60,445 nucleotides of DNA from a virus (IMGVR_UViG_3300027306_000005:1-60445), one strand, 5' to 3'. Numbered from the stretch's first letter, positions 665 to 52,004 are shown. The notes: generated by a model not told the origin, from the sequence alone. Translations and numbers: made by a program.

Positions 665-3160
665 TTAGAGTGATTCACACTCTTCACGCCTTTTCTTGAA
701 CCACTCACGGATCATCGCACCGGGGCTGTGTTCGAATCGCGAGGGGTCACGAACGTAGATGCGGCTGCGCTCATCCGAGCTAATTCGGACCCGCGCAAGC
801 AACTCGTAACCCTCTCGTTCCATCATGAAGCTGAGGGCCTTCTTCTGTGGGATCGCCGCGCCACGGGCCATCGCTGCTTCCATCAAGATGCTCAAGTCCA
901 CCACTTCGTAAGACACCTCCGGCACCTCGTTCTCGGCGATGATCTCGCTGAGGATCTGAATGAACTCAGGCTTGGAGCGGTCGATCATCTGGCGGCGGGC
1001 CTTCGTCTCAGGTGCGTCCCCCATCGGGTCGAACTCGTCGCTTTGCTCATGATCGAGAAGCCACGCCCGCAAAGCCCCGGCGCATTCGTCGATGCACTGG
1101 TAGAGCTTGGCGTAGTAGTCCCTGTTGGCCGACTTGAACGCCTTGATGTCATCCCTCTTCTGCCAGCGCGAGAAGAGGATGAGATAGCGCCGGTCTGTGT
1201 CATCGAGCGGCAGCGCGTCCTTGTAGTTGGTGAACAGCAGGTAGTTGGTCGTGTTGATGCAGTTGTAGACAGCCTTGCCCTTGGGGTGCACCTCGATCAC
1301 CGTGTTGGTGATGTAAGGCTTGATGCGGTTGATCACCTCGTACTTGTTCTTGTCGTTGATCAGGCGCACTTCCTCGACGCAGGCAACACACTGGCCAGCA
1401 CACCAGTCGGTGAAGTCGTTGTGCAGGATCTGTGCGTTGAGCATGGTCACGTTGCTCACGCCCATGATGGCCCGCAGCATCTCGGCGAAGAACGTCTTGC
1501 CGTCACCTTGAACACCTTGCAGCAGGATCGCGTAGTTCGCGTGCTTGCCGGGGTTCTGCACAACCCAGGACAGCCAGTCGAGCAGCATGCGTTGCTCACG
1601 CGGGTCTTCGAGAAGGTGTGCGATGTGCGCCCGCACACGCTCGATGGCTCGCTTGTCCTTGGGCAGCATTTTTTCGGGCCGTTCGGGGATCTCGTGCTCG
1701 GCGTAGGTGTTGGCGAACACGCCATCGGGCTCGTGGAAGATCGGGTCACGCCCAGGCATATAGCGCCTGCCGCCGACCGTGTGGATCTTGTAGATGTTCA
1801 ATGCCAGCGACGACGCGTTGGACGATGGCACCGTGCGACCCTCCAAGGCGTCCTTCTTGGTCAAGGCATTGCGGTCGTACATCGCGTTGAAGCCCTGCTG
1901 CGTCGTCGCGATCTTGTTGTCGGTGTTGAAGAAGCGGTCATCGCTGGTGTCGTACACCCAGCTTGCACACCACTTGGGCGTTTTCTCCTGCTTCTTGGGC
2001 GAGTAGGCCAGCGCCTTCTTGATCTCGACCAACGAGGTCTTGGTGCCGGTGATCGCGTCTCGCCTTTCCTTGGCAATCACGGCAAGGGCTGATCGCGACA
2101 AACCGTCGATCTCAGCTTCACGCACCAACTGCTGAGCCTTTGCCCAAGCACCAAGATCCTTGGCTTCGAGGAATGCGTCACGCAACTTGATGGTCAACTC
2201 GGCAGTCGTGTTCTCGACAGCTTCCTTGGCCAAGCGCAAGATGTATCGTGCGGTCAGTGGCGCCCGCTTTTTACCCTGGATGTTGAAGTCTTTCCAGCGA
2301 CGATCCAGCGCATCACCGTCGTAGTTGTCGGCGGTCTCAGACCACTCGTGCCACAACTCACGACCTTCGTCTTCGCCGTCGAACTGGTGGAAGAGGGCCA
2401 TGCCCACCTGCACCCAAGTCTCATAATCCTCGGCACCGTGCACGAGCAGCAGACGTGAGCGCAGTTCATCAACCGTGATGTCGATGGCGTCGGTGTCTTC
2501 AAGCCAGGGGTTGTCGGAAATCTTCGCAGAGCCGCTCATCGCGCTGCGAGCCTTCTTGGCCACTGTCCAGCCCTCTTCTTCGGCCAGTTCGTCGAAGTAG
2601 GCGATGAACTCTGCTGCCTTCTCAGGGGTCAGCACCGGCAGCGTGTGCGCCTGGGTCTCCAGCGGACCGTCGAAGTTCGGCCAGAAGTACGGCTTCTTCG
2701 TCTCAGGGTGGATGTGGTAGGCGACGAACTGCTGGCCGTCCCCCAACACCTCGATCTTGTGCTCCTGGCCCCATTCATCGACGTACTTCGACGACGTGAT
2801 CTTGCGGAAGGGCTCATCGCACCGGAACATGAACAGACGCTTAGGCGCCTTGCCGATGCGCACGGGCGCTTCGTCGCTCAGGTTCGTCTCGATCCAAGCC
2901 GACAGCTTCTTGACCACGTCGTCATCAAGCACGTCGATGTCTATGGCCGGCGTGTGCTTGGTGATGATGCCAACGCCTGAGTTCTTGTGCCCGTATTCGA
3001 GCCACTCGTTGAGTTGAGCCTTGGTCGAGCGAGACTTCTGCCAGCCGTCGAAACCTGGGGCCTTTTTGCCTCGTTGGATAGGGACGATGCTGTAGCCGTT
3101 GTCGATCAGTGTCTCGCCATGCTGAGCGAGGTAATCGCCGGGGTTGTTGAACTCACTCAT
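665..3160 (-). CDS. DNA primase-polymerase / PriCT-2 / SF3 (D5-like) helicase
   Basis: N-terminal prim-pol motifs (PIQRGKKAP, AIDIDV), PriCT-2-like YETWVQVGMAL..WHEWS, Walker A GVQGDGKT, Walker B CVEE. Confidence 0.9.
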   Translation of the reverse strand: MSEFNNPGDYLAQHGETLIDNGYSIVPIQRGKKAPGFDGWQKSRSTKAQLNEWLEYGHKNSGVGIITKHTPAIDIDVLDDDVVKKLSAWIETNLSDEAPVRIGKAPKRLFMFRCDEPFRKITSSKYVDEWGQEHKIEVLGDGQQFVAYHIHPETKKPYFWPNFDGPLETQAHTLPVLTPEKAAEFIAYFDELAEEEGWTVAKKARSAMSGSAKISDNPWLEDTDAIDITVDELRSRLLLVHGAEDYETWVQVGMALFHQFDGEDEGRELWHEWSETADNYDGDALDRRWKDFNIQGKKRAPLTARYILRLAKEAVENTTAELTIKLRDAFLEAKDLGAWAKAQQLVREAEIDGLSRSALAVIAKERRDAITGTKTSLVEIKKALAYSPKKQEKTPKWCASWVYDTSDDRFFNTDNKIATTQQGFNAMYDRNALTKKDALEGRTVPSSNASSLALNIYKIHTVGGRRYMPGRDPIFHEPDGVFANTYAEHEIPERPEKMLPKDKRAIERVRAHIAHLLEDPREQRMLLDWLSWVVQNPGKHANYAILLQGVQGDGKTFFAEMLRAIMGVSNVTMLNAQILHNDFTDWCAGQCVACVEEVRLINDKNKYEVINRIKPYITNTVIEVHPKGKAVYNCINTTNYLLFTNYKDALPLDDTDRRYLILFSRWQKRDDIKAFKSANRDYYAKLYQCIDECAGALRAWLLDHEQSDEFDPMGDAPETKARRQMIDRSKPEFIQILSEIIAENEVPEVSYEVVDLSILMEAAMARGAAIPQKKALSFMMEREGYELLARVRISSDERSRIYVRDPSRFEHSPGAMIREWFKKRREECESL

Positions 3161-3444
3161 GCGCTGGCCTTGATCTTCAAAGGTTCAATCAGGTACTCGG
3201 ACTTCACGATGGAGCGGCCAACTGCGTCCTCGATGGCCTTAGCCATGCTCTCCGTGAAGTAGCCCCGGCGAATGGCAAAGGACAGCGACGAGTGATCCAT
3301 TTCGATCTGCTCGCAAAGACCTCGTACACTCTGCCTTCCCGTGGCTTCGATTGCAGCTCTGTTGATCAAGTAGCGCAGGCGTGCCGACGCACGCTGCTCT
3401 TCGTCTTTGTGGGCGTCTACCCATTTGGGGAATCGCACAGTCAT
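3157..3444 (-). CDS. Cro/CI-like HTH regulator
   Basis: SVRGLCEQIEMDHSSLSFAIRRG helix-turn-helix; ATGA overlap with the primase; start placed at the ATG at 3444. Confidence 0.65.
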   Translation of the reverse strand: MTVRFPKWVDAHKDEEQRASARLRYLINRAAIEATGRQSVRGLCEQIEMDHSSLSFAIRRGYFTESMAKAIEDAVGRSIVKSEYLIEPLKIKASA

Positions 3445-3494
3445 AGGATCTCCTGTGTTGTTGCGAAAAAGTGTACGCGAACTTGTTGACAGTC

Positions 3495-4101: not shown

Positions 4102-4179
4102 CGCTCCCTTTCGTTTCCACATCCTGTGCTGCTGCCCACAGCACGGGCTTTCATCATCCATGGGCAAAAGGAAAACATC

Positions 4180-4539
4180 ATGAGCATCACCGTCTCGAAG
4201 ACCTTCGAAACCGAATCCGAAGCGATCGCATGGCTGAACGGCGGCAGCGCCGACACCTCGGTCTCCACCGGCAAGACCGGCAAGGCTGAAACCAGCAAAC
4301 CTGCCGCCAAGACCACCAGCAAGCCCAAGGTGACCCAGGAGCAGGTGCAAGCTGCCCTGACCAAGGTCAAGGACACCCTGGGTGTGCCCGCAGCCAAAGG
4401 CATCATCAACGAAACCGGCGGCGTCAAGAAGATGGACGACATCCCGGAGGACAAGTACGCCGCTGTGATCAAGGCTTGCGAAGAAAAGCTGACCGAAGCC
4501 GAAGCCGAAACCGAGAACGCCGAAGACGACGGCATCTGA
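4180..4539 (+). CDS. conserved small protein preceding the DUF2800 nuclease
   Basis: AAGGA RBS; K/T-rich linker plus helical domain (GVPAAKGII..GG.KKMDDIPEDKY); usual position in this operon type. Confidence 0.75.
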   Translation: MSITVSKTFETESEAIAWLNGGSADTSVSTGKTGKAETSKPAAKTTSKPKVTQEQVQAALTKVKDTLGVPAAKGIINETGGVKKMDDIPEDKYAAVIKACEEKLTEAEAETENAEDDGI

Positions 4540-4558: not shown

Positions 4559-5869
4559 ATGAGTGAACATCGCATTGACCTGAAGCAGCTTGAAAGCATC
4601 CGTGATGGATCGGGCCACTCGATCTTCGGAGCTTCAGGTTCGGCGATGTTCCTCAACTGTGCCTACTCTTTGATCCCCAACCTCCTGGCACCCGACGACG
4701 CGGGCGAGGACGCTGCATACGGCACCGTGGCTCACGCCATGGGCGAGTTGTGGCGCAAGACCGGCCGCAAGCCGGTTGAGTTCCTCGGCAAGCGCAAGTT
4801 CGTGGAGTCTGGAGAGTGGGGGTTCTTCATCGAGATCGACGAAACGATGCTCGACTATGTGCAGCAGTCCGTCGATTGGTCTGCACTTCTCCCTGGAGAT
4901 CACATAGTCGAGGTTCGTGTTGATTATTCCGACCTCACACCAATCAGGAACCAAGGTGGCACCCTGGACTTCGGCGCGATGATGCTGCACCGTGCTTACG
5001 TGCAGGACGAGAAGTACGGCAAGAACGAAGAAATCCTGGCCGAAGAGAACACCCAACTCATGCTCTATGCCTATGGCATGTACCGAGAGTGGGACTGGCT
5101 GTATGGCTTCAAGGAGTTCGTCATTCGCATCTCGCAGCCGCGCCTTGGTCACTTCGACGAGTGGGTGTGTAGCCGTTCACGCCTGTTGGAGTTCGCGGCA
5201 TGGGCCAAAGAGCGTATGCATCTGGCATGGAGTCACGATGCACGCCCCACCCCAGGTCACAAGCAGTGCAAGTGGTGCAAGGTCAAGTCGTCATGCGCTG
5301 CTGCCGCGAAGATGGAGAACGACCTTGTTACCGAGGCGTTCGCCAGCATTCGCGAGTACGACGAAGAAGACATTGCGCAGTTCAAGGAGACATTGGACGC
5401 CGGCCTTCTGGGTCGACCGCTCAGCGTGATGACACTGACCCTGGAACAGATGGTTGCTCTGAAGCAGTATCAGCGTTTCAGTGAGTCGTTCTGGAAATCA
5501 CTAGACAAGGAACTGATGCGACGTGCAATCACCATGCGGGAGAAGATCCCCGGCATGAAGTTGGTTCACGGACGCTCGTTTCGCACCTTTAAGAACAGGA
5601 ATGTTGCGATCAAGACGCTTACCAGCCTTGGTTGCGACATCAAAGATGTTGTGGTTGAAACCTTGGTCAGTCCTGCTGAAGCGGAGAACTTGCTTCGCAA
5701 AGCTGGCCACCGGCACAAGGATTTGCCCCAACTGCTTGGCCCGCTGGTTGAGAAACCTCCTGGCAAGCCCACCCTCGTTCCGCTGAGTGATCGGCGTGAC
5801 GAGATCAAAGATGTCACCGATGGCGCATTTGTCGCCTTTGACGATGACGAAACCGAAGAAACCGATTGA
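4559..5869 (+). CDS. DUF2800 / Cas4-like PD-(D/E)xK exonuclease
   Basis: HS..GASG, GTVAH, GTLD, DEKYG, QLMLYA and CKWC motifs. Confidence 0.85.
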   Translation: MSEHRIDLKQLESIRDGSGHSIFGASGSAMFLNCAYSLIPNLLAPDDAGEDAAYGTVAHAMGELWRKTGRKPVEFLGKRKFVESGEWGFFIEIDETMLDYVQQSVDWSALLPGDHIVEVRVDYSDLTPIRNQGGTLDFGAMMLHRAYVQDEKYGKNEEILAEENTQLMLYAYGMYREWDWLYGFKEFVIRISQPRLGHFDEWVCSRSRLLEFAAWAKERMHLAWSHDARPTPGHKQCKWCKVKSSCAAAAKMENDLVTEAFASIREYDEEDIAQFKETLDAGLLGRPLSVMTLTLEQMVALKQYQRFSESFWKSLDKELMRRAITMREKIPGMKLVHGRSFRTFKNRNVAIKTLTSLGCDIKDVVVETLVSPAEAENLLRKAGHRHKDLPQLLGPLVEKPPGKPTLVPLSDRRDEIKDVTDGAFVAFDDDETEETD

Positions 5870-5879
5870 AAGGTAGATC

Positions 5880-6527
5880 ATGAGCCAACTGACCGTTGTC
5901 AAGGAATACAAGAACGGCGCGATGATGAAGGACGCGAAGGGGGAGGTGTACTTCCGCGTCGACAAGATTCGCGCTTCCTACCCCTTCGTGGGCACCCCGT
6001 CGAAAGACGAGGGCGAGGATGGCAGCGAGCGCAGCAACTGGCGCATCGTCGGCATGCTGCCCAAGGCCACGCACACCGAGATCAAGGACGCCATGAAGCA
6101 GCACATCTTGCAGCTTCAGAAGGACAACGATGCTAAGGTGCCGGCTGACAAGTGGTATCTGAAGAACGGCGACGACTCGGAAGACGAAGCCATGCATGGC
6201 CACTTCTTGCTCAGTGCTGCCGACTCGAAGAAACGGCCCAAGGTGCGTGACCGCAAGGGTCAGGTCATGGACGACATCCAGAAGATCGATGACACCTTCT
6301 ACGGTGGCTGCTGGGTGAGCCTGCTGATCCGCCCCTGGTTCTTCAACGGCACCGCCCGCAGTTCGACGAAGAAGTTCCCCAAGCGTGTCTCGGCGAACCT
6401 CGTCGGCGTCATGTTCTACAAGGACGACACGCCGTTCGGCTCCGGCCGCATCGATGACGATGGCGCCTGGGGCGACACCGCGAGCGACGAAGACGACGGC
6501 ATGGACGACGGCGACGACGGCCTTTGA
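5880..6527 (+). CDS. DUF2815-type single-stranded DNA-binding protein
   Basis: RASYP, LKNGD, FYGGCW, D.PFG motifs, acidic tail, position between nuclease and polymerase. Confidence 0.85.
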   Translation: MSQLTVVKEYKNGAMMKDAKGEVYFRVDKIRASYPFVGTPSKDEGEDGSERSNWRIVGMLPKATHTEIKDAMKQHILQLQKDNDAKVPADKWYLKNGDDSEDEAMHGHFLLSAADSKKRPKVRDRKGQVMDDIQKIDDTFYGGCWVSLLIRPWFFNGTARSSTKKFPKRVSANLVGVMFYKDDTPFGSGRIDDDGAWGDTASDEDDGMDDGDDGL

Positions 6528-6844: not shown

Positions 6845-8950
6845 ATGCCCAAACGTTACGCCATCAAACGCAAGGAAGCGTCCTTCGACTTGGAGGTCTT
6901 CCGAAACTACTTCGCGGTCGCTTTCAAGTGCATCGAAACGCGCCGCTGGAAGCGGTTTGAGTTGTTCCCTGGGGGAACGCTCGACCGCGCCGGGATCGCA
7001 AAGATTCTGCGCAACTTCCGTATCTACGGGTTCAACAGCATCAGCTTTGACATGCCGATCCTGATGGCCGCAATGGACGGCTTCAGTTGCTCTGAGTTGA
7101 AGAACCTGTGCGACACGATCATCCAAGAGCGGCTGATTTACTTCAAGACCTACGAGCAGTTTGGTATCAATAAGCCACCTGTCTTCGTCGACCACATCGA
7201 CTTGATGAACGTTTCCCCAGGTTCGCCCAACAACAACCTGAGCGGGAAGGGGAGCGGCGAGTGGCCGAGCCTCAAGCTCTACGGTGGCCGGCTGCACACA
7301 CGCAAGATCCAAGAGATGCCCGTGGACTTCACGCGCAACCTCACTGCGCAAGAGATCGAAGAAGTTCGGACGTACCACATCAACGATCTCGATGTGACCA
7401 TCGACATGGTGTCGGACTTGCGCACGCAGATCGATCTTCGTGCAGTGATGTCGGATGAGTACGGCATCGATCTTCGCTCGCGTTCTGACGCTCAGATCGC
7501 CGAGGCAGTCATCCGCGTTGAGGTCGAGCGGCAAAGCGGGAACAAGGTTCCAAAGCCGCAGATCACACCGGGGAAGTTCCGCTATACGCCCCCGTCGTTC
7601 ATCAAGTTCCAGACTCCCGTATTGCAGGAGTTGTTTGACACCGTTTGCAGTGCGAGGTTCACCATTGGCCATGACGGCAAAGTCTACGAGCCACCCGAGA
7701 TCAAGTCCAAGAAGATCACCCTGGACATCCAGACTTACACGTTCGGCATCGGCGGTTTGCATTCCACCGAGAAGCGGGTCTGCTACGTCGATGACGGCAC
7801 CTTCTCGCTTCGTGACCGTGACGTGACGAGCTACTACCCGCGCACGATCCTGAACACCGGCCTGTTTCCCAAACAGCTTGGAATTTACTTCCCGAAGGTG
7901 TACGAGGGCATTCTCGTTCGTCGGGTCACTGCGAAAGACGCAGGAGACAAGAACACCGCAGAGACACTGAAGATCGTTTTGAACGGCACTTTCGGGAAGC
8001 TGGGTCAAGGCACGTCGATCCTCTACGCGCCCAACCTGCTCATCCAGACCACCGTCACAGGTCAGCTTGCGATCTTCATGCTGATCGAGCGCCTCGTGCT
8101 TGCCGGCATCACGGTGATCTCGGCCAACACCGACGGCATCGTCAGCAAGGTTCCCAAGAACCTCGAAGATCGGTTCTTCTGGATCTGCCACGATTGGGAG
8201 GTCGACACCGGCTACGGCACGGAGGAAGTTCGATACAAGGCCCTCTACTCTCGCGACGTCAACAACTACATCGCGCTGTACGAAGAGAAGGACAAGGCCA
8301 CAGGTCAGGTCAAGATCAAGGCCAAGCGCAAGGGAGCCTACGGTGAACGCGGCCCCGGGCTCTCTGGCGCCGCTGGTCAGAAACACAACCCTGATGCGGA
8401 AATCTGCTCCATCGCGGTCATCGAGTACCTCAAGAACGGCACTCCCATCGAGACCACGATTGAGGACTGTGAAGACTTTCGCAAGTTCGTCATCGTGCGT
8501 CGCGTGGCCGGTGGTGCTGTGCTGCGCGGCGAGTTCATCGGCAAGGTTGTCCGGTGGTATCAAAGCACAGAGTCGGATGAGCCTTTGCGGTACGAGAAGA
8601 ACGGCAACAAGGTTCCATCGTCAGAAGGTGCAAAACCGGCGATGGTTCTCCCGGACGAGTTCCCCGATGACATCGACTACGAATGGTACGTGCGCGAGGC
8701 ATACGCGATCCTCTCTGACATCGGTGCCGGTGAAGGTGACCCGAACTTGGCCGGTCGCGCAGGCGTGATGTTTGGTCGGGCTCCCGATCAGAAGACGATC
8801 CACCGTGTGAAGCTGCCCGATGGCACAGCAATGTGCGGCAAGGAGCTTGCAAACTTCCGTGATCGTTGGGTGGAGTATCCGGACGGCGTGCCGATGGGCA
8901 TGCGTCTTTGCTCGAAGTGCGTCAAGTGCGTTGACGAGGATGATCTGTGA
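6845..8950 (+). CDS. family B DNA polymerase with 3'-5' exonuclease and C-terminal Zn-finger-like extension
   Basis: ExoI FDLE, ExoII NSISFD, ExoIII YHIND; polB motifs DVTSYYP, KIVLNGTFGK, SANTDG. Confidence 0.88.
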   Translation: MPKRYAIKRKEASFDLEVFRNYFAVAFKCIETRRWKRFELFPGGTLDRAGIAKILRNFRIYGFNSISFDMPILMAAMDGFSCSELKNLCDTIIQERLIYFKTYEQFGINKPPVFVDHIDLMNVSPGSPNNNLSGKGSGEWPSLKLYGGRLHTRKIQEMPVDFTRNLTAQEIEEVRTYHINDLDVTIDMVSDLRTQIDLRAVMSDEYGIDLRSRSDAQIAEAVIRVEVERQSGNKVPKPQITPGKFRYTPPSFIKFQTPVLQELFDTVCSARFTIGHDGKVYEPPEIKSKKITLDIQTYTFGIGGLHSTEKRVCYVDDGTFSLRDRDVTSYYPRTILNTGLFPKQLGIYFPKVYEGILVRRVTAKDAGDKNTAETLKIVLNGTFGKLGQGTSILYAPNLLIQTTVTGQLAIFMLIERLVLAGITVISANTDGIVSKVPKNLEDRFFWICHDWEVDTGYGTEEVRYKALYSRDVNNYIALYEEKDKATGQVKIKAKRKGAYGERGPGLSGAAGQKHNPDAEICSIAVIEYLKNGTPIETTIEDCEDFRKFVIVRRVAGGAVLRGEFIGKVVRWYQSTESDEPLRYEKNGNKVPSSEGAKPAMVLPDEFPDDIDYEWYVREAYAILSDIGAGEGDPNLAGRAGVMFGRAPDQKTIHRVKLPDGTAMCGKELANFRDRWVEYPDGVPMGMRLCSKCVKCVDEDDL

Positions 8951-9240
8951 TGGGCAGTTTCTTTGAGCGCACGAGTCGTGAGCGAGCCGACGTGGAAGCG
9001 CCGGCAATCAAGTTTGCGCAACGCCGTGGTTGGTGGCACACCAAGATCACCTCTCCAACGCGAGACTCTCTTCCCGATGACTTGTTTGTGCGCAATGGCG
9101 TCTACATCTGGTGGGAGTTCAAGGCCCCAGGTGAAGAGCCCACATCAAAGCAACGTCTTCGGCACCGGCAGATGTGCGAACGCGGCATGGACGTGAGGTG
9201 GACGGACAACCTCGAAGACTTCAAGAGGCAGATGCAATGA
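8950..9240 (+). CDS. VRR-NUC domain nuclease
   Basis: E..VE, PD.LF, EFKAPG..PT..Q motifs; TGATG coupling to the polymerase. Confidence 0.85.
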   Translation: MGSFFERTSRERADVEAPAIKFAQRRGWWHTKITSPTRDSLPDDLFVRNGVYIWWEFKAPGEEPTSKQRLRHRQMCERGMDVRWTDNLEDFKRQMQ

Positions 9241-10838
9241 GTTTCTGCATGGCCGAGTTCATCGCGGAGAAGTTTGCTCATGTCGAGTATCGACGCGATG
9301 AGATGCACCCGTACCAGAGAGAGGGTTACGACTTTCTTCGCAAGAACCCTTTCTCTGCGCTGTTCATCGACATGGGGATGGGCAAAACAGTCACGTCGTT
9401 GACGCTCATCGTCGACCTCATCTGCTCCTTCGAGACCCCGAAGGTACTGGTGATCGGCCCGCTCAAGGTTGCCACCGACACATGGCCGAACGAGATCAAG
9501 AAGTGGAACCACACTGCGGTTTTGAACTACACCCTCATTCGCTGCGAGGATGACAACCCGGAGCTTGTCGAGGCAATGCGTGTCGCTCGACGCGAGGCTC
9601 GAAGCATCGGCTTAGGCGGCAATCAGGTCGAGAAGTATGTTCAAACTGTCCGTGCGAAGACCAAGGCTGACATCTTGGCTCGCAAGGCTTCGGATGGGAA
9701 CTCGGTTCACATCATCAACCGAGAAGAGGTTGAGTGGCTTGTTCAGTTCCATGGGCGGAAGTGGCCATATCGAACGGTGTTCATCGACGAGAGCAGTGCG
9801 TTCAAGGACCACACCACGATCAGGTTCAAGGCTCTTGCAAAGGTTCGCAAGACCCCTGGTTTGATCACTCGGATGCATCTGCTCACGGCAACACCGGCAG
9901 CAGAGACCTATGAGCACCTGTTTGCCCAAATCTACTTGCTCGATGCCGGTGAGCGTTTCGGCAAGCACATCACCAAGTTCAGGAACGAGTTCTTCACATA
10001 CAACGCCTACTCTCGCAAGTACAAGATCCGACCGAACTGCGAACAGATCATCCTCGACAAGATCAAGGACATTTGCTTGGTCATGCGGGCGAAGGACTAC
10101 CTCGATCTTGAAGAGCCAACTCTCGCGCCTCGCGAAGTGATCCTCTCAGAGGCACAGATGCGTCTCTACAAGAGCATGGAGGAAGAGGGCTACGTCAAGC
10201 TACCTGACGGCACCGAGATCGATGCTGAAACCGCCGCTGCGCTATCTGGCAAGCTGCTCCAGATGTCCTCGGGTGTGCTGTACGAAACCTTCGAGCTTGG
10301 TGATTGGGAGTCCGAGGACGTACGCAAGGTCAAGCGCGTTCATCAGTTGCACGATCACAAGATCGAGATGCTGCGGCAGATCGTCGAAGAGTGCCCTGGT
10401 GAGCCGCTGCTTGTTGGCTATCACTTCAAGTCCTCTCTTGACAGACTGAAGAAGGCGTTCCCCAAGGGTGTCGCCATGGACAAGGAGGGGCGGTGCATCA
10501 AGGACTGGAACGCACGCAAGATCCCGATGCTCTTCATTCACCCTCAGTCAGGTGGCCACGGCTTGAACATGCAGAAGGGTGGCCATAACCTCATCTTCTT
10601 CGATCTCCCGTGGTCGCTTGAACTGTTTCTGCAACTCATCGGTCGCTTGGCGCGTCAAGGTCAGAAGAATCCTGTTCTCGTGCAACCCCTGATCGCCAAG
10701 GGAACCCTTGACGAGTACGTCTACAAGCAACTGATCAACAAACGGGACGCTCAAGAAATGTTGTTCCGAATGCTCAAGAGAATGATCAAGAAAGCCAAAG
10801 AACGTCAGGCTTTGAGGGAGCTTGACCTCGCTCTTTAA
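9237..10838 (+). CDS. SNF2-family helicase
   Basis: HPYQ, DMGMGKT, DESS, TATP, GHGLNMQ, QLIGRLARQGQ; ATGA overlap start. Confidence 0.9.
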   Translation: MSFCMAEFIAEKFAHVEYRRDEMHPYQREGYDFLRKNPFSALFIDMGMGKTVTSLTLIVDLICSFETPKVLVIGPLKVATDTWPNEIKKWNHTAVLNYTLIRCEDDNPELVEAMRVARREARSIGLGGNQVEKYVQTVRAKTKADILARKASDGNSVHIINREEVEWLVQFHGRKWPYRTVFIDESSAFKDHTTIRFKALAKVRKTPGLITRMHLLTATPAAETYEHLFAQIYLLDAGERFGKHITKFRNEFFTYNAYSRKYKIRPNCEQIILDKIKDICLVMRAKDYLDLEEPTLAPREVILSEAQMRLYKSMEEEGYVKLPDGTEIDAETAAALSGKLLQMSSGVLYETFELGDWESEDVRKVKRVHQLHDHKIEMLRQIVEECPGEPLLVGYHFKSSLDRLKKAFPKGVAMDKEGRCIKDWNARKIPMLFIHPQSGGHGLNMQKGGHNLIFFDLPWSLELFLQLIGRLARQGQKNPVLVQPLIAKGTLDEYVYKQLINKRDAQEMLFRMLKRMIKKAKERQALRELDLAL

Positions 10839-10981: not shown

Positions 10982-11222
10982 GCCTTCAGCCACCCCCAAC
11001 CCACTGCTTGTCTCCCTGGAGTCCAGAACGGGGCTCGGGCCGACCTACGCCGCTGCGTTGCTGGGTATGCCCTACATCACCTACTCACAGTACCGCTCGG
11101 GCAAACGCCCGCTCAAGGCGACCGTGGTTCGGCACATCGAGCTTGTGCTGTTCCTCAACCCCGAGCAACTCCTGATCTGGATCGAAAGCCATGCCCGTCA
11201 GCCAAATATCGACCAAGCGTAA
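10980..11222 (+). CDS. small XRE-type HTH DNA-binding protein
   Basis: LGPTYAAALLGMPYITYSQYRSGKR HTH; lies directly before the terminase genes. Confidence 0.7.
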   Translation: MPSATPNPLLVSLESRTGLGPTYAAALLGMPYITYSQYRSGKRPLKATVVRHIELVLFLNPEQLLIWIESHARQPNIDQA

Positions 11223-11811
11223 CCAAAAGAGCCTGGATGACCGCAGCCAGGAGATGCTCTTCGAGGGGCTGAACCTCTCGCAGCTTGGGCTCGCATTCAA
11301 CATGGACATCCGGGCAGTCCAACAAAAGCTCCACGGCGTGGCCCCATCCACTGTTCGCCACGGCTCGAAGGTGTGGCTCCTGGCCGATGCGGCTCCGTAC
11401 CTTGTGAAGCCCAAGGTAGACGTGGAGACCTACATCAAGTCGATGAGCCACAGCGATCTACCCAAGCACCTGACGAAGGAGTTTTGGGCGGGCCAGCGTG
11501 CACGGCAGGAGTTCATGCTCAAGGAGGGCGACCTCTGGCCGACACCAATGGTCGTTGAGAACGTCGGTGAGCTTATGAAGGTGATGGCCATGGCCTTAAA
11601 GCTGCTCGGCGACACCGTGGACCGCCAAGCAGAACTCACTCCAAAACAGCGCAAGATCATCACCGAGATCGTGGACGCAACTCTCAAGGATCTGGTCAGG
11701 TCCGTTGAAGAACGCTTCGGAAAGGCGAAGTCGCGAATCGAGGCTGAGGCAGCTATCGTTGCTGAATCGCGCAAGGTTGCCGAAGAAGAGGACGACGATG
11801 AGTCGCTATAA
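11191..11811 (+). CDS. terS: terminase small subunit (DUF1441-like)
   Basis: Position before terL; N-terminal HTH-like LSQLGLAF..D; LPKHLTKEFWAGQ. Confidence 0.8.
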   Translation: MPVSQISTKRNQKSLDDRSQEMLFEGLNLSQLGLAFNMDIRAVQQKLHGVAPSTVRHGSKVWLLADAAPYLVKPKVDVETYIKSMSHSDLPKHLTKEFWAGQRARQEFMLKEGDLWPTPMVVENVGELMKVMAMALKLLGDTVDRQAELTPKQRKIITEIVDATLKDLVRSVEERFGKAKSRIEAEAAIVAESRKVAEEEDDDESL

Positions 11812-18601: not shown

Positions 18602-18853
18602 ATGAGCCAGTCCCTCATCCCCTTGCAGTCCATCGTGGTCGTGCGTGACAACAAGATGGTCACGCCGCCCCTGAACAAGCCCTTCACCTTCACCGATGAC
18701 GAAGTGAAGGATCTGCCCGCTGGCAGCTACCGCAGCCCCGTGGTCGAGGTTGCCGCCGACGAAGGTGGTGACGAAGACACCAGCAGCAAGCAGACCGCAC
18801 CCGCTGCCAAGACCGCCGCGAAGGGCAAGAAGCCCTCCAACGAGGATCTGTGA
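18602..18853 (+). CDS. hypothetical head-associated protein
   Basis: GGAG RBS; position after the major capsid protein. Confidence 0.7.
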   Translation: MSQSLIPLQSIVVVRDNKMVTPPLNKPFTFTDDEVKDLPAGSYRSPVVEVAADEGGDEDTSSKQTAPAAKTAAKGKKPSNEDL

Positions 18854-26298: not shown

Positions 26299-26300
26299 TC

Positions 26301-42586: not shown

Positions 42587-42889
42587 TCACAGGCTGTCGT
42601 CGTCATCGTCGTCGTCGTTCAGAGGATCGTGGGGCTTCTCGGCTACCTTGCCCTTGACAACCCTCTTTTCGGCCGCTGTGAGTGATCCTGACCTGTCCAC
42701 GGGGGCGTTGAGACGACTCTTGATGTGCTCGATCACGGCATCCCCGATGGCCAGAACGTCGCTGACCTTCCAGTTGTAGCCGTTCTTGACCCTGGAGACG
42801 GGCTTGACGCCGGCCTCGATCAGGATCTCGGGACGGAACTGCACACCGAAGTGCTTGCACAGTTGAGTGGTTGTGACGGTATCGCTCAT
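42587..42889 (-). CDS. hypothetical protein (possible DNA-binding) with acidic tail
   Basis: AAGGA RBS; ends DPLNDDDDDDDSL. Confidence 0.75.
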   Translation of the reverse strand: MSDTVTTTQLCKHFGVQFRPEILIEAGVKPVSRVKNGYNWKVSDVLAIGDAVIEHIKSRLNAPVDRSGSLTAAEKRVVKGKVAEKPHDPLNDDDDDDDSL

Positions 42890-42922: not shown

Positions 42923-43852
42923 TCAAAGGCTCTCGTCGTCTTCGGCTTCGACCTTCGGCACGTCACCCAGCACGCGCACGCGCAGCCGCTTGCCGTCGAT
43001 GGCGTCGACGTGCTGGCGGGGCACCCGCACGAAGAACGTCACGTAGTCGTTGGCTTCGAGGTCTTCAGCCGGGGCGTACACGTCGACCACGATCTCGGGG
43101 TTCTTGGCCTTGGTGTCGCCCTTGGTCAGGGTCTTCTTGGTGATCTTCTTCTTGCCACCGGCCTCGGCCACCTCGACGGCTTCGGTCAGCTTCTTGGCCG
43201 CACCCTTGCCGTCCTTCTTGAGTTCTTCGATGGCCAGGGACGCCGAGACCTTGCCCTGCTCGACCAGCTTGCGCACAGCAGCGGGAGCCGCGAGCAACTC
43301 GAAGAGGTTGTCGACGTACTTCTTGGTGAAGCAGAGACGATCAGCGATGGCTTTGTTGTCCAGGCCAAAGCCCTGCAAACGTTTGCACACGATGGCCGTC
43401 TCGATGGGCGTCAGGGGACGCCCCTTGTTGCCGGTGACCAGGGCAACTGTGATGTCTTCTTGCGACGTACCTTGCGGTTTGACGATCACCGGGACCGCTT
43501 CGATGGTGTGACCTTCTTCGATGGCCATGCCCACGGCTTCGTGCCGCGTGTGACCCCCGGTCACGAAGATGGCGTTGTTGCCGTTCCTGTCCTTGCCCAC
43601 GTAGCCTTCGAGCGGCTTGTCACGGTAGAAACCGTTCGCCGTGATTGAGTTCTTGATGTCGTTGAGGTGGGCAAGGTACTCAGCGTTGCGAATGCGGACA
43701 TTGAAGCCCGGAATCACACGCAACTGGCTGTAGGGGACCATCCACAGGTCGGACGACGAGGCGCCTGCGTCCTTCATGGCGGCTTTGACGCTGCCGGGGA
43801 CGAGGCCCTCGATCACCGTGTCGGTGGTGGGGGTTGCTGCTTTGGTGTTCAT
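42923..43852 (-). CDS. ParB/Spo0J-like protein
   Basis: GFNVR, GGHTRH, N.GRPLTPIE and HTH IADRLCFTKKYV. Confidence 0.8.
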   Translation of the reverse strand: MNTKAATPTTDTVIEGLVPGSVKAAMKDAGASSSDLWMVPYSQLRVIPGFNVRIRNAEYLAHLNDIKNSITANGFYRDKPLEGYVGKDRNGNNAIFVTGGHTRHEAVGMAIEEGHTIEAVPVIVKPQGTSQEDITVALVTGNKGRPLTPIETAIVCKRLQGFGLDNKAIADRLCFTKKYVDNLFELLAAPAAVRKLVEQGKVSASLAIEELKKDGKGAAKKLTEAVEVAEAGGKKKITKKTLTKGDTKAKNPEIVVDVYAPAEDLEANDYVTFFVRVPRQHVDAIDGKRLRVRVLGDVPKVEAEDDESL

Positions 43853-45686: not shown

Positions 45687-45953
45687 TCAGAGTTCTTCGT
45701 CGGTCAGCGTGACGTGCGGGGCTTGGAGCCATACAACGTCATAGACCAGATCAACATTGAGCGACTTGTTCAGATCGCCGAAGATGGTGTCGAAGACCTC
45801 CGACAATGTTTCGACATCGCGAGCCATGATCGCAACCTCCTGCCCATTTGGCAGGTTGATCGATGCACCCTTGCCGAAAACGCCCATCGTCTTGGCGGTG
45901 TTGAGCTTTGCAACGTCCAGGCGTTGCAGCCGTGGCCCCTTGATGTCGCTCAC
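45687..45953 (-). CDS. hypothetical protein (paralog of 45950..46216)
   Basis: GTGA overlap; L.NG.EV motif. Confidence 0.7.
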   Translation of the reverse strand: MSDIKGPRLQRLDVAKLNTAKTMGVFGKGASINLPNGQEVAIMARDVETLSEVFDTIFGDLNKSLNVDLVYDVVWLQAPHVTLTDEEL

Positions 45954-46216
45954 AGATCATCCTCCAGATCGAGATCACGCACGTCGCAGATAGCGGCGTT
46001 GATGTTGAGCCGTGTGTCCAGTGCCGGTGGCCTGTTCAGTGAGATGTCAAGTTGATCGACCACGCGTTGGAGGTTCTCGTCACTGCTCGTCAGCAAGATC
46101 ACCTCAATGCCGTTACGCAGCTTCACGCACGTCGCTCGACCCAGGTACACCGTGCGACCGGCCTTAGCCGACTGCTCGCGCTTGATCGTCTTCGGTGGTC
46201 GGGCACTGGCGCTCAT
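45950..46216 (-). CDS. hypothetical protein (paralog of 45687..45953)
   Basis: L.NG.EV motif; acidic tail. Confidence 0.7.
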   Translation of the reverse strand: MSASARPPKTIKREQSAKAGRTVYLGRATCVKLRNGIEVILLTSSDENLQRVVDQLDISLNRPPALDTRLNINAAICDVRDLDLEDDL

Positions 46217-46334
46217 GGGTCTTCTCGGTTTGAGGTTTGATGATCTGCTTCTTGTAGAGGTGCTCGGCTACGGAGAAGCCCAGCAGGAAACTCAGGAGCA
46301 GCATGAAGAGGGTGCGGATGAAGTAGGTTGTCAT
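46164..46334 (-). CDS. small membrane protein (56 aa, not in ORF track)
   Basis: GGAGGT RBS, ATGA overlap, MTTYFIRTLFMLLLSFLLGFSVA TM segment. Confidence 0.55.
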   Translation of the reverse strand: MTTYFIRTLFMLLLSFLLGFSVAEHLYKKQIIKPQTEKTHERQCPTTEDDQARAVG

Positions 46335-46564
46335 CGTTGTTCACCTCCCGCCTGGGCGGGCATGGCGGCGCCTGCACCACTGCAAGCTGGGCATGCTTCG
46401 GTACGCATGCGCGGTGGCCAGGCGCTTGTTCCGCTGCCGCAGGTGATTCGACCGCTGCCACTGCACCTCTGGCATGGCCCCGCATCCAGCGCAGCGGCCT
46501 GATCCTGATCGCGCGGGCCCATGCCGCCGTCGCTCACGATGTCGGTGTATTGGGTATTGCTCAT
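46331..46564 (-). CDS. DnaJ-type zinc-finger protein
   Basis: Two CxxCxGxG motifs (CQRCSGSG, CPACSGAG). Confidence 0.65.
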   Translation of the reverse strand: MSNTQYTDIVSDGGMGPRDQDQAAALDAGPCQRCSGSGRITCGSGTSAWPPRMRTEACPACSGAGAAMPAQAGGEQR

Positions 46565-46827
46565 AGCTCTTCATCCTCGTCATCATTGAGTGGGTCATAG
46601 GCAGGCTTGCTGACTGCCTTGCGCTTGGGATCAGGACGCCAGCGGTAGATGTACTTCTCGTTGTCGCTGGTGATCTCCAAAGTGCCGTGATCGACACCGT
46701 AGAAGAAGGCGTTACCTGTGACCGGGATGCCGGCCTTTTTCATGTCCTTGATCACCTCGATCTCGACGAGGATGCTGTTGCCCAGGAACTTGACACGGTC
46801 CTTGGAGATGGTGACTTCGATGGTCAT
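46561..46827 (-). CDS. hypothetical protein with acidic tail
   Basis: AGGAG RBS, ATGA overlap; ends DPLNDDEDEEL. Confidence 0.7.
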   Translation of the reverse strand: MTIEVTISKDRVKFLGNSILVEIEVIKDMKKAGIPVTGNAFFYGVDHGTLEITSDNEKYIYRWRPDPKRKAVSKPAYDPLNDDEDEEL

Positions 46828-50510: not shown

Positions 50511-50713
50511 GTCGTCTCCTTGATGTGCTTGTTGCCGTCCGCAACCGACTCAGCGAGGCACGGTGACTGGTGCACACGGTGCTCGACGCCATCACGGTCG
50601 CGGACGATCTCGAAGTAGAAGAGGTTCAGACCCTTGCCGGGTGCGCGTTGAAGCTGGCGCAGGCAGTGCCAGCACAGCGACGGCGGGCCTGGGGCGATGC
50701 GGGCTTTGGTCAT
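50507..50713 (-). CDS. small Zn-finger-like protein
   Basis: CWHC...H..C. Confidence 0.6.
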   Translation of the reverse strand: MTKARIAPGPPSLCWHCLRQLQRAPGKGLNLFYFEIVRDRDGVEHRVHQSPCLAESVADGNKHIKETT

Positions 50714-50955
50714 CAGTACGACCTTCTCAGCGGCTCAGGTTCCGGCCATGGCTTTGCGAAGCCGATCAACTGACAAGGCACCTCGACTTCAACCACTTGC
50801 TGGAGGCTTCCTCGCGTCAGTTGCATGTACCGACCATTGCTAACGACGTTATCGGCCCATTCCTTTTTGGCGATGGGACCGGCAAGCATGCCCACGATCT
50901 CATCGGGCTTGTCGGGCATGACCTCGACGACGTAGTAGCAGGTGAACGTGGCCAT
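50713..50955 (-). CDS. hypothetical protein
   Basis: TGATG coupling to rdgC. Confidence 0.6.
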   Translation of the reverse strand: MATFTCYYVVEVMPDKPDEIVGMLAGPIAKKEWADNVVSNGRYMQLTRGSLQQVVEVEVPCQLIGFAKPWPEPEPLRRSY

Positions 50956-52004
50956 CACAGTTCCTCGTCGTCTTCTTCGTTGAGCGGATCGACGGGTTTG
51001 GTCTTGGCGATCTCCTTGGCCTCGCGCTTGAGTTCGGCCAGGGTCTTGAAGCCACCGAACTCGTGCATCAGGTTGATCACCACATCGGTGTACGTGCGAG
51101 CCGTGAGCCACAGGACGGCTTCGAGTTGCTGCTCGGTGGTCTCGGCGTCACCCATCTCGGTCTTGGCGACACCATCGTTGAACTTCAGACCCTTGAAGAC
51201 CAGCTTGTCGCTGAGCTTGAAGCTGAGCATGCGGTTCTCTTCGTTGCCGTTGGGGTCGTAGCTGATGCCGAGTTCATGCACGTCATACTGCTGCTTGAGC
51301 AGCTTGGTCACGTCATCCGACTCGATGTCCTTGTCCTTGATGCGGATGGTCTGCTTGCCCTCGCCACGCAGCACGGCGTTGTCGGTGACCATGAAGGCGC
51401 CGTCATCATTGGCACTGCTGAAGCCGTCCTTGGCCAGGAGGGTCAGCGTGCCCACCACGGCGTTGTTCGGTTGCAGCGGGTACCACGAGGTGTCGCTGCT
51501 CGTCATCTGGTTGAACAGGCCGCACAGCATCACAATGGTGTCCTCGGCACGCTTGGGCGAGGTCGTGCACACCAGCACGAGACGGTGCTTGGCGATGAAG
51601 ATCACCGGGGTGACGGAGCGGCGGATGAACGCCTTGGGAAGCAAGGAGAACTCGACTTCCTCCTTGAGCATGGCGTAGTCCTTCTTGCCGATGGCACGGC
51701 CTTCGCGCTGGTTGAACTTCTCAACCTCCTTGGCCAGGAACTCGTCACGCACCTTGCCAGGGAGGATGCGTTCGTTGACCTGCATGGCCATGAGGAACTT
51801 GCCTGCTTCGATCTGGTGGACGAGGTTTTCACCCACGGCAGCGATCAGACCCTGCGAGCGCCAGGACGTTGCGGCCGGGTCTTTGCTGCCCCACACCTCG
51901 GCGATGCTGCCGCTGAGGGTCTCGGGCTCATCACCCTTGAGCCAGTCGAAGACGGCTTGCGATGCGAGGTAGGGGATGAACGCGGGGAACTTGAGCTTCT
52001 TCAT
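50955..52004 (-). CDS. rdgC: recombination-associated protein RdgC
   Basis: ERILPG.V, EGR.IGKK....LKEE....LLPKAF, ends ..FGG. Confidence 0.85.
   Translation of the reverse strand: MKKLKFPAFIPYLASQAVFDWLKGDEPETLSGSIAEVWGSKDPAATSWRSQGLIAAVGENLVHQIEAGKFLMAMQVNERILPGKVRDEFLAKEVEKFNQREGRAIGKKDYAMLKEEVEFSLLPKAFIRRSVTPVIFIAKHRLVLVCTTSPKRAEDTIVMLCGLFNQMTSSDTSWYPLQPNNAVVGTLTLLAKDGFSSANDDGAFMVTDNAVLRGEGKQTIRIKDKDIESDDVTKLLKQQYDVHELGISYDPNGNEENRMLSFKLSDKLVFKGLKFNDGVAKTEMGDAETTEQQLEAVLWLTARTYTDVVINLMHEFGGFKTLAELKREAKEIAKTKPVDPLNEEDDEEL

What the first reader, a model, noticed from the sequence alone, without database searches (positions are those of the whole stretch)
665..52004. Shared acidic C-terminal tag ending in Leu on about a dozen unrelated proteins
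Seen C-termini: primase EECESL; 4180 AEDDGI; SSB DDGDDGL; polymerase DEDDL; TerS EEEDDDESL; 18602 NEDL; 42587 DPLNDDDDDDDSL; ParB-like EAEDDESL; 45687 TDEEL; 45950 DLEDDL; 46561 DPLNDDEDEEL; RdgC DPLNEEDDEEL. Three unrelated genes share the longer DPLN-(D/E)n-x-L form. The capsid, tail and lysis proteins lack it. Established: the acidic tips of bacterial SSB (DDDIPF) and T7 gp2.5 dock onto partner proteins. Inference: a phage-wide docking code that recruits replication, recombination and packaging proteins to one hub, or a shared proteolysis or stability signal.
Basis: partly seen in the sequence, partly recalled or inferred. Interest (0 to 1): 0.78.

Follow-up and report, generated by a model that had tools for sequence, protein, structure and literature searches.

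The report
Shared acidic C-terminal docking tails
About a dozen unrelated DNA-handling proteins of this phage end in the same short acidic tail capped by one leucine, and in related phages the capping residue changes in all of these proteins together, which suggests that one shared reader protein recognises all the tails.

Summary
In the window, which is a complete 60-kb phage genome, 10 of 87 predicted proteins end in an acidic run plus Leu. About 0.12 would be expected.

All 12 listed termini are real. They are kept in relatives whose proteins are only 65-74% identical: the acidic residues drift while the last residue stays.

The pattern is not a by-product of ribosome-site overlap, DNA repeats or composition.

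The tail system runs through the family. Twenty-two of 26 Casjensviridae-like genomes or contigs carry 5-17 such tails each, against 0.2-0.5 expected. The same protein families carry them: SSB, PrimPol, TerS, RdgC, DUF2800 nuclease and others.

The last residue is specific to each lineage and nearly uniform within a genome: Leu in most, Val in Chi-like phages, Ile in an Aeromonas phage, Phe in contig G014. This concerted switching is the signature of one shared, co-evolving reader.

The closest precedent is phage T7, where the SSB (gp2.5) and the helicase (gp4) share an acidic tail ending in Phe.

The reader protein is not identified, and no binding is shown. I rate this a new variant of a known kind, of high interest.

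The parts
665..3160 (-). PrimPol / D5-like helicase-primase (831 aa). Tail ...KKRREECESL, class B.
   Evidence: Pfam Prim-Pol, PriCT_2 and DUF5906. Orthologues are tagged in 20 of 23 genomes. The tip is F in G014, V in Chi and I in BUCT551.
4126..4539 (+). Small protein of unknown function ('fam8', PHROG 7721; the ATG at 4180 is the likelier start). Tail ...ENAEDDGI, class A.
   Evidence: Orthologues are tagged in 22 of 22 genomes that have the gene. Across orthologues its own tip is loose: L, I, M or V.
4559..5869 (+). DUF2800 / PD-(D/E)XK nuclease. Its end is acidic (DDDETEETD) but lacks the hydrophobic tip in this phage.
   Evidence: Pfam. Orthologues carry a full tail in 15 of 24 genomes, for example FoX4 LDADEL and Chi DDDDEV.
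5880..6527 (+). T7 gp2.5-type single-stranded DNA-binding protein (Enc34_ssDNA-bd). Tail ...DEDDGMDDGDDGL, class A.
   Evidence: Pfam PF10991. Orthologues are tagged in 23 of 24 genomes. The Enc34 homologue has a solved structure with a disordered acidic tail (PMC5686142).
6845..8950 (+). Family-B-like DNA polymerase. A Cys-rich segment is followed directly by ...VDEDDL.
   Evidence: Annotated as DNA polymerase in relatives. Weak match to PDB 1S5J. Orthologues of this polymerase type are tagged in 6 of 16, and most others still end in L.
9237..10838 (+). SNF2-type helicase. It ends ...RELDLAL, a terminal Leu without an acidic run; borderline member.
   Evidence: Pfam. Orthologues carry a full tail in 12 of 24 genomes.
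11191..11811 (+). Small terminase subunit (DUF1441). Tail ...AEEEDDDESL, class B.
   Evidence: Pfam and PHROG 141. 82 of 89 database relatives end in at least 3 acidic residues plus a hydrophobic tip. Orthologues are tagged in 20 of 22 genomes, and FoX4 TerS as well.
18602..18853 (+). 83-aa DUF7443 protein directly after the major capsid gene, which I recall as the lambda FI position. Weak tail ...KKPSNEDL.
   Evidence: Pfam. Orthologues are tagged by the looser rule (at least 2 acidic residues plus a hydrophobic tip) in 19 of 22 genomes. The tip follows the lineage: V in Chi, I in BUCT551.
42587..42889 (-). 100-aa protein of unknown function. Long tail ...EKPHDPLNDDDDDDDSL.
   Evidence: no family. 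Orthologues are tagged in 7 of 7 genomes. It is the last gene of its operon, so no downstream ribosome site can explain the tail.
42923..43852 (-). ParB-like protein (HTH_ParB). Tail ...KVEAEDDESL.
   Evidence: Pfam and PHROG 1033. Orthologues are tagged in 5 of 6 tail-rich genomes.
45687..45953 (-). 88-aa protein of unknown function. Tail ...VTLTDEEL.
   Evidence: The tail is kept in G001, G002 and G006 (ADEEL, EDEEL, EDEEL).
45950..46216 (-). 88-aa protein of unknown function. Tail ...DLDLEDDL.
   Evidence: The tail is kept in G001, G002 and G006 (LEDDL, FESEL, FEDEL).
46561..46827 (-). 88-aa protein (PHROG 31589). Tail ...SKPAYDPLNDDEDEEL.
   Evidence: Orthologues are tagged in 11 of 11 genomes. 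The tip is F in G014.
50955..52004 (-). RdgC-like protein. The RdgC domain ends at about residue 318, followed by a 31-residue linker and the tail ...KTKPVDPLNEEDDEEL.
   Evidence: Pfam RdgC over residues 45-318. 143 of 150 nearest database representatives end in an acidic run plus a hydrophobic tip. The two solved cellular RdgC proteins stop 4-7 residues after the same GG motif.

Best explanation
The tails are short linear docking motifs of the SSB-tip type. Each is an acidic run of about 3-11 D/E residues that ends in a single aliphatic residue carrying the free carboxylate. They usually follow a stretch that varies between orthologues.

Inference: the acidic run lies on a basic surface of a shared reader protein, and the last side chain plus the carboxylate sit in a small pocket. 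This would bring the replication, recombination and packaging proteins of the phage to one place.

My estimates for its identity are the gp2.5-type SSB (about 35%), the PrimPol helicase or polymerase as in T7 (about 20%), another phage protein (about 20%), and a host protein (about 15%).

Two sub-classes exist:
- Class A: SSB and the small protein fam8, of the form DDDG-[L/M/I/V].
- Class B: all other tagged proteins, of the form D-[D/E]-[E/D]-L with a strict tip.
There may therefore be two sites.

Shown: the motif, its excess over chance, its conservation, and the co-variation of its tip.
Inferred: binding, the pocket, the hub and its function.
For: 1. Excess: 10 of 87 proteins against 0.12 expected; 0 of 748 non-gene frames.

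2. Purifying selection on the tip. In G002 (RdgC 65% and polymerase 74% identical), 11 orthologues keep the terminal L or I while the acidic residues differ. Tips use 4 different Leu codons and two stop codons in the window. Chi uses 4 Val codons, BUCT551 2 Ile codons, and G014 both Phe codons.

3. Signature of a short linear motif. The consensus of 54 RdgC sequences is unconserved for about 18 columns after the GG motif, then reads DDDEL. 143 of 150 RdgC representatives and 82 of 89 TerS relatives carry the tail. The two solved cellular RdgC proteins lack it.

4. Family-wide use. Twenty-two of 26 Casjensviridae-like genomes or contigs carry 5-17 tails each, against 0.2-0.5 expected. Six outgroup genomes carry 0-3.

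5. Concerted tip (table of 17 lineages by 11 families).
- G014 has F in 8 families (PrimPol, nuclease, SNF2, TerS, RdgC, exonuclease, fam43, fam29) and I in 3.
- Chi has V in all 7 families that are tagged there, and BUCT551 has I in all 8.
- JC01 is mixed.
- 12 lineages have L, with I, M or V mainly in SSB and fam8.
- There are 88 same-genome family pairs sharing a non-Leu tip. Permutations gave a mean of 14.8 and a maximum of 37, and 0 of 20000 reached 88.

6. Hosts do not predict the tip. In Achromobacter, AXY1 has 11 L tails and AchV4 has 2 plus LA/LL variants. Among enterobacterial phages the tips are V, L, or F and I.

7. Precedent.
- T7 gp2.5 (ADEDGDF) and gp4 (SNDTDF).
- Their tails bind basic patches of the polymerase (passages of PMC12593628).
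- The gp2.5 tail interacts with polymerase and helicase and is needed to stimulate gp6 (passages of PMC4124056).
- Enc34 SSB is gp2.5-like, and in the crystal its tail lies in a neighbour's groove (passages of PMC5686142).
Against: - No binding partner is identified.
- My scan for columns of conserved proteins that change in all three non-Leu lineages found none in the SSB core and only 5 of 202 in PrimPol. It was inconclusive.
- Co-variation of the tip shows a shared constraint, not its nature. A shared protease adaptor or modifying enzyme would give the same pattern.
- G014 and JC01 have mixed tips (F and I), so more than one reader may exist.
- Lineages are related, so the permutation test overstates independence. 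There are only about four independent non-Leu lineages.
- All gene calls are from my own simple caller, and it missed FoX4 TerS.
Confidence: 0.62

Rival explanations
1. The tails are DNA mimics that act in cis. Each acidic tail folds back on the DNA-binding surface of its own protein and tunes DNA affinity or specificity. No common hub is needed.
For: - Nearly all tagged proteins with a recognisable family bind DNA.
- Deleting the Enc34 SSB tail lets the protein bind double-stranded DNA as well (passage of PMC5686142).
- The reference list of the same paper names a study in which the T7 gp2.5 tail and single-stranded DNA compete for one surface (reference title only).
Against: - Unrelated DNA-binding folds would not all demand the same last residue, nor switch it together to V, I or F in one lineage.
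- The strict position at the very end (free carboxylate) and the DPLN extension shared by three unrelated proteins point to one reader.
- This mechanism could still coexist with docking, as it does in T7.
Confidence: 0.15
2. The tails are a shared degradation or stability signal. A protease adaptor, of phage or host, reads them and times the removal or the protection of early proteins.
For: - A single adaptor would also explain the concerted tip changes.
- Most tagged genes lie in the early and replication regions.
Against: - SSB and TerS are tagged. From general knowledge, SSB is needed in bulk and TerS is needed late.
- The portal is tagged in 3 of 24 genomes.
- The homologous tails of T7 gp2.5 and Enc34 SSB are documented as interaction or DNA-selectivity elements, not degrons.
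- From memory, untested here: known bacterial C-terminal degrons are non-polar (ssrA ...LAA), and acidic residues near the end weaken them.
- No unfoldase-type protease was recognised among the genes I examined. The FoX4 record annotates only a ClpP-type prohead protease in the head module.
Confidence: 0.08
3. The reader is a conserved host protein, so the tails hijack a host hub rather than a phage hub.
For: - In the outgroup phages JG054 and MiCath, one SF2 helicase ends in DDDIPF.
- I recall DDDIPF as the tip of bacterial SSB. If so, related phages do use host-type tips.
Against: - The tip differs between phages of closely related hosts: Klebsiella and Salmonella V, Erwinia L, Cronobacter F and I.
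- It also differs between two Achromobacter phages.
- The tails do not resemble DDDIPF.
Confidence: 0.12
4. The tails are a by-product of nucleotide-level constraints: Shine-Dalgarno and start codons of coupled downstream genes (GAGGA..CTGTGATG), repeats, or composition.
For: Five of the 12 tails in the window overlap the ribosome site or start of the next gene, for example GAC GAG GAT GAT CTG TGATG at the polymerase end.
Against: - Six or seven tails have no coupled downstream gene.
- Across 20 tail-rich genomes, tagged genes are coupled no more often than untagged ones: 112 of 218 against 763 of 1350, Fisher p 0.16.
- Codons and stop codons differ between tails.
- 0 of 748 non-gene frames carry the pattern.
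- The tip co-varies at the protein level.
Confidence: 0.02

Closest known systems
Phage T7 gp2.5 (SSB) and gp4 (helicase-primase) acidic C-terminal tails ending in Phe, which dock on basic patches of T7 DNA polymerase
   Same: - An acidic run plus one hydrophobic last residue, at the very C-terminus.
- Present on the gp2.5-type SSB and on the primase-helicase of the same phage.
- The tails are documented as protein-protein contacts.
   Different: - T7 has two such proteins of 56 annotated genes, and only gp2.5 passes my strict rule. Here there are 10-12 in the window and up to 17 in relatives. They include TerS, RdgC, nucleases, a ParB-like protein and small proteins of unknown function.
- The tip is aliphatic (L, V or I) in most lineages rather than aromatic.
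- The polymerase itself is tagged in the window.
- The family holds two unrelated polymerase types with the same tail system, so the polymerase need not be the hub.
Enterobacter phage Enc34 ORF6 SSB (solved structure; Pfam Enc34_ssDNA-bd)
   Same: - It is a homologue of the window's SSB.
- 16 of its last 29 residues are acidic.
- The tail is disordered, lies in a neighbour's groove in the crystal, and controls the choice of single- over double-stranded DNA.
   Different: - In the passages and sections I read, the paper treats the tail as a property of SSBs only.
- It does not mention other Enc34 proteins with the same tail.
- From the cloning primer quoted in the paper, I read its tip as ...WDEDEV. 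That matches the Val type I found in Chi-like phages.
Bacterial SSB C-terminal tip (recalled as ...DDDIPF), which recruits many genome-maintenance enzymes
   Same: An acidic run with a hydrophobic last residue serves as a multi-partner docking element in DNA metabolism.
   Different: - The polarity is reversed. In bacteria one protein (SSB) carries the tail and many enzymes carry pockets. Here many enzymes carry the tail.
- The sequence differs (no I-P-F).
- The outgroup phages JG054 and MiCath do carry an exact DDDIPF on one helicase.
Sliding-clamp-binding peptides shared by many clients (bacterial QL[SD]LF; T4 gp45-binding C-termini of gp43, gp33 and gp55; recalled, not tested)
   Same: One short terminal peptide sits on many unrelated clients of one hub.
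   Different: - Those motifs are hydrophobic rather than acidic.
- In the genes I examined I recognised no clamp gene.
- The tails do not fit the consensus.

Membership tests
SSB-tip / T7 gp2.5-gp4 type acidic C-terminal docking tail | Located at the extreme C-terminus (free carboxylate) | tested here: met
   All 12 tails are followed directly by a stop codon. The same pattern is about 80-fold rarer at internal positions.
SSB-tip / T7 gp2.5-gp4 type acidic C-terminal docking tail | A run of acidic residues before the tip | tested here: met
   At least 3 D/E in the five residues before the tip in 11 of the 12 listed. 18602-18853 has two.
SSB-tip / T7 gp2.5-gp4 type acidic C-terminal docking tail | A single conserved hydrophobic last residue (Phe in T7 and in E. 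coli SSB) | tested here: met
   L in 11 and I in 1 in the window. The tip is conserved in orthologues and is Phe in lineage G014. It is aliphatic rather than aromatic in most lineages.
SSB-tip / T7 gp2.5-gp4 type acidic C-terminal docking tail | Carried by the phage's own SSB and its primase-helicase | tested here: met
   SSB is tagged in 23 of 24 genomes and PrimPol in 20 of 23.
SSB-tip / T7 gp2.5-gp4 type acidic C-terminal docking tail | Preceded by a flexible, poorly conserved linker | tested here: inconclusive
   The RdgC consensus is unconserved between the GG motif and DDDEL. In the polymerase the tail follows a Cys-rich segment directly. No disorder predictor was run.
SSB-tip / T7 gp2.5-gp4 type acidic C-terminal docking tail | Binds a basic patch or pocket on a partner protein | not testable with these tools
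   No experiment was possible. Sequence co-variation is indirect evidence.
Bacterial SSB-Ct mimic (DDDIPF) | The terminal I-P-F tripeptide after the acidic run | tested here: not met
   No protein of the window ends in IPF. It was seen only in the outgroup helicases of JG054 and MiCath.
C-terminal degron of the ssrA / ClpXP type | A non-polar terminal tripeptide such as LAA (recalled consensus) | tested here: not met
   Positions -2 and -3 are acidic in class B tails: E47 and D25 of 95 at -2.
Casjensviridae-like siphophages (for the genome itself) | A shared core of replication, packaging and tail genes with named members of the family | tested here: met
   14 protein families are shared by all 24 compared genomes, which include Chi, AH2, AXY1, UF_RH7 and Salvo. 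The family names come from the record taxonomy lines. Nucleotide identity to any named phage is low, 64-70% over parts of the polymerase gene, so the genus is not assigned.

The most novel reading that the evidence does not exclude
Casjensviridae-type phages run a private C-terminal address code. About 10-17 replication, recombination and packaging proteins per genome are gathered by one phage-encoded reader. The code would therefore also act as a compatibility barrier: a module imported from a phage with a different tip would not plug in. The mixed-tip genomes G014 and JC01 would be recent mosaics caught in transition.
Probability: 0.35. Interest if true: 0.9.

Novelty: new variant of a known kind. 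Interest (0 to 1): 0.8.

Why it matters
- It extends the SSB-tail idea from one or two proteins to a proteome-wide address system that covers packaging (TerS, the FI-position protein, sometimes the portal) as well as replication and recombination.
- It assigns a likely shared context to several proteins of unknown function (4126-4539, 42587-42889, 45687-45953, 45950-46216, 46561-46827): all carry the same tail.
They would also explain limits on mosaic exchange between related phages.
- Four searches of the held paper library found no description of tails shared by many proteins in these phages. The library is incomplete, and supplementary files were not consulted.

Tried and rejected
1. Complex prediction. 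SSB core (residues 1-198, alignment A3) against the last 45 residues of RdgC (alignment A1). The tool's verdict was 'no answer' (score 0.01, mark 0.32). I count this neither for nor against binding.

2. Scan for receptor positions. In 24 families present in at least 19 genomes, I counted columns conserved in the L-type genomes and changed in the V, I and F lineages alike. PrimPol had 5 of 202, SNF2 2 of 157, RdgC 3 of 35 (one of these is the tip itself), and the SSB core 0. With only three independent non-Leu lineages this is inconclusive. Four families were skipped because a lineage was missing.

3. Shine-Dalgarno or coupling artefact. Rejected.

4. DNA-level repeat or gene conversion of tails. 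Rejected, because codons differ at nearly every position, including in the three DPLN tails.

5. fam8 as hub. It is present in all 22 genomes with tails and absent from the two tail-poor ones, Salvo and AchV4. The FI-position protein shows the same pattern. The fam8 core is not basic (pI 5.2-8.8), and the protein-atlas search gave no named relatives. This remains an untested idea.

7. The single-protein RdgC scan of viral contigs found only 1 locus. The alignment scan found 11.

8. Gene caller. The first version gave 87 genes and the improved version 85. Counts cite the version used. The caller missed FoX4 TerS, which I checked by hand.

Full report
**What the window is.** The 60,445-base window is a complete virus record. 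It has 58.6% G+C, and my codon-usage gene caller finds 85-87 genes.
- The genome has a leftward PrimPol gene, followed by a rightward replication block: a small protein, a DUF2800 nuclease, a T7 gp2.5/Enc34-type SSB, a family-B-like polymerase and an SNF2 helicase.
- Then come TerS, TerL and a head and tail module. Its counterpart in the collinear phage FoX4 carries lambda-type gene names.
- A leftward early block follows, with a ParB-like protein, RdgC and many small genes.
- Fourteen protein families are shared with all 24 compared genomes, which include named Casjensviridae such as Chi, AH2, AXY1 and UF_RH7.
- No named phage is close at the DNA level.

- With the rule 'at least three D/E in the five residues before a terminal Leu', 10 of 87 proteins qualify. 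Internal positions of the same proteins predict 0.12 (binomial p about 1e-16). No set of 2000 shuffles exceeded 3.
- Of 15 proteins with an acidic end, 10 end in Leu and one in Ile.
- None of 748 long non-gene frames in the window shows the pattern.
- Structural and lysis proteins lack it. The exception is the small gene after the capsid gene, 18602-18853.

**It is not a nucleotide-level artefact.**
- Five of the 12 tails do overlap the ribosome site and start of a coupled downstream gene, for example GAG GAT GAT CTG TGATG. Six or seven have no such neighbour.
- Over 20 tail-rich genomes, tagged genes are coupled in 112 of 218 cases and untagged genes in 763 of 1350 (p 0.16).
- The tips use four Leu codons and two stop codons in the window.
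- The three DPLN tails differ at nearly every synonymous site.

**The tails are conserved as a motif.**
- Two metagenomic relatives keep the tails on the same genes. G001 has a polymerase 93% identical, and G002 has a polymerase 74% and RdgC 65% identical. Their acidic residues drift (EECESL to EECEGL, DEDDL to DADEL, EAEDDESL to AAEDDEAL) while the last residue stays.
- In an alignment of 54 RdgC relatives, the stretch after the domain's final GG motif has no consensus. The last five columns read DDDEL.
- Of the 150 nearest RdgC representatives in a library of 1.8 billion proteins, 143 end in at least three acidic residues plus a hydrophobic tip. The tips are L 127, I 9, F 8, Y 2, M 2, V 1, D 1.
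- Of 89 TerS relatives, 82 have such a tail.
- The two solved cellular RdgC proteins (303 and 306 residues) stop 4-7 residues after the GG motif. The linker and tail are therefore an addition.

**It is a property of the whole family.** I fetched complete or near-complete relatives: 15 IMG/VR contigs and 16 named phages. I called genes in each with the same script.
- Tails (at least 3 acidic residues plus L, I, V, M or F) number 5-17 per genome in 22 of 26 Casjensviridae-like genomes or contigs, against 0.2-0.5 expected.
- AH2 has 3, AchV4 has 2 and Salvo has 2. The fragment G015 has 5 of 56.
- Six outgroups that share only the polymerase have 0-3.
- Eighteen further SSB-centred loci show the same tails.
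- The same families are tagged everywhere (looser rule of at least 2 acidic residues):

| Family | Tagged / genomes with the gene |
|---|---|
| SSB | 23 of 24 |
| fam8 (4126-4539) | 22 of 22 |
| RdgC | 21 of 22 |
| TerS | 20 of 22 (plus FoX4 TerS) |
| PrimPol | 20 of 23 |
| FI-position protein | 19 of 22 |
| DUF2800 nuclease | 15 of 24 |
| SNF2 helicase | 12 of 24 |
| 46561 family | 11 of 11 |
| B-like polymerase | 6 of 16 |
| Second polymerase type | 0 of 9 |
| Portal | 3 of 24 |
| TerL, capsid, tail tube, tape measure | 0 of 24 each |

- Tails come and go on individual proteins. The nuclease has lost its tip in the window's clade. The portal has gained a tail in FoX4 and G009.

**The key result is a concerted tip.** The last residue is nearly uniform within a genome and differs between lineages.
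- Leu: the window and 11 other lineages.
- Val: Chi (V10, I1), a Klebsiella phage (V9) and a Providencia phage (V7, I3).
- Ile: Aeromonas phage BUCT551 (I11).
- Phe: contig G014 (F7, I2, no Leu).
- Mixed F and I: Cronobacter phage JC01.
- In G014 the orthologues of PrimPol, nuclease, SNF2, TerS, RdgC, an exonuclease and two small proteins all end in Phe. Their counterparts elsewhere end in Leu.
- A permutation of tips among 17 lineages within each of 11 families gave a mean of 14.8 same-genome pairs sharing a non-Leu tip, with a maximum of 37. The observed value is 88, reached in 0 of 20000 permutations.
- The lineages are related, so the true number of independent switches is about four.
- Codon use at the tips is mixed in every lineage, so selection acts on the protein.
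- Hosts do not predict the tip. Two Achromobacter phages differ, and enterobacterial phages show V, L, or F and I.

**There are two sub-classes and an extension.** In 15 L-type genomes the two classes differ.
- SSB and fam8 tails (n=30) read D-D-D-G-tip, with a loose tip (L18, M6, I4, V2).
- All other tails (n=95) read D-[D/E]-[E/D]-L, with a strict tip (L91, I4).
- In both G014 and JC01, SSB and fam8 share one tip while TerS and RdgC share another. This hints at two sites.
- The DPLN extension (K-P-x-D-P-L-N before the acidic run) is confined to the window's sub-clade (G000, G001, G002, G006), with three proteins in each genome. It sits on TerS instead of RdgC in G006.

**Most likely mechanism.**
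- The tails have the anatomy of the SSB tip. In T7, gp2.5 (ADEDGDF) and gp4 (SNDTDF) carry such tails, and they contact basic patches of the polymerase.
- The window's SSB is of the gp2.5/Enc34 type. The acidic tail of Enc34 lies in a neighbour's groove in the crystal and sets DNA selectivity.
- I infer that the acidic run binds a basic surface and that the last side chain with its carboxylate fills a pocket of one shared reader.
- Only the motif, its excess, its conservation and its co-variation are shown. Binding, hub and function are inferred.
- The polymerase is an unlikely sole hub, because two unrelated polymerase types serve the same tail system.

**What failed.**
- The scan for co-varying receptor positions was inconclusive.

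**Rivals.**
- Cis-acting DNA mimicry may well coexist with docking, but it does not explain a common tip that switches in concert.
- A degron read by one adaptor would explain the co-variation. It fits poorly with tags on SSB, TerS and portal, and with what is documented for the homologous SSB tails.
- A host reader fits poorly with the way tips are distributed over hosts.
- The nucleotide-artefact reading is refuted.

**Novelty.**
- Acidic tails with a hydrophobic tip are established docking elements on SSBs and on T7 gp4.
- Several things appear new: the scale (up to 17 proteins), the reach into packaging and into proteins of unknown function, the reversed polarity compared with bacterial SSB, and the genus-specific tip that co-varies across the proteome.
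- Four searches of the held literature found nothing on this. Of the Enc34 paper I read the passages listed, and they treat the tail as an SSB feature only. Supplementary files were not consulted.

Noticed in passing
L033:14383-16161 (Pseudomonas phage JG054) and MiCath 25225-27024: In two outgroup phages that share the polymerase but have no detectable homologue of the window's SSB, a roughly 595-aa protein ends in ...DDDIPF. I recall this as the tip of bacterial SSB. The JG054 protein is an SF2 helicase; the MiCath protein was not scanned. So phages that appear to lack their own SSB seem to copy the host tip on a helicase.
   Followed up: partly
AchV4 (NC_052974.1) genes ending at 34058, 50227, 51510 and 52124: This Achromobacter phage uses variant ends with one extra residue (…DDELL, …DDDMLA, …DIDDLL, …DDDPLA) and has few standard tails. 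Another Achromobacter phage, AXY1, has 11 standard Leu tails.
   Followed up: no
window 8860-8950: The polymerase ends in a Cys-rich segment (…CGKE…CSKCVKC…) directly before the DEDDL tip. Relatives show …CRREDSL and …CRKAGEL. It may be a zinc-binding element that presents the tip without a linker.
   Followed up: no
window 18602-18853: The tagged DUF7443 gene lies just after the major capsid gene, which I recall as the position of lambda FI. FoX4's head genes carry lambda-type names in its record. Together with TerS this makes two packaging-associated proteins that carry the tail.
   Followed up: partly
Genomes (families 29 and 39 of that call): The compared phages carry one of two unrelated polymerase families. 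Fifteen genomes have the B-like type of the window and nine have another type of about 680 aa, in an otherwise collinear replication module. Only the B-like type is ever tagged.
   Followed up: no
window 46331-46564 (-): A low-scoring 77-aa frame starts at an ATGA overlap with the tagged gene 46561-46827. The improved gene caller dropped it, so it is unclear whether it is a real gene. This affects whether that tail counts as coupled.
   Followed up: no
G002 (IMG/VR contig) 58462-58623: A 53-aa frame ends in …PDEDEDEDEDEDEYNE. It is strongly acidic but has no hydrophobic tip.
   Followed up: no
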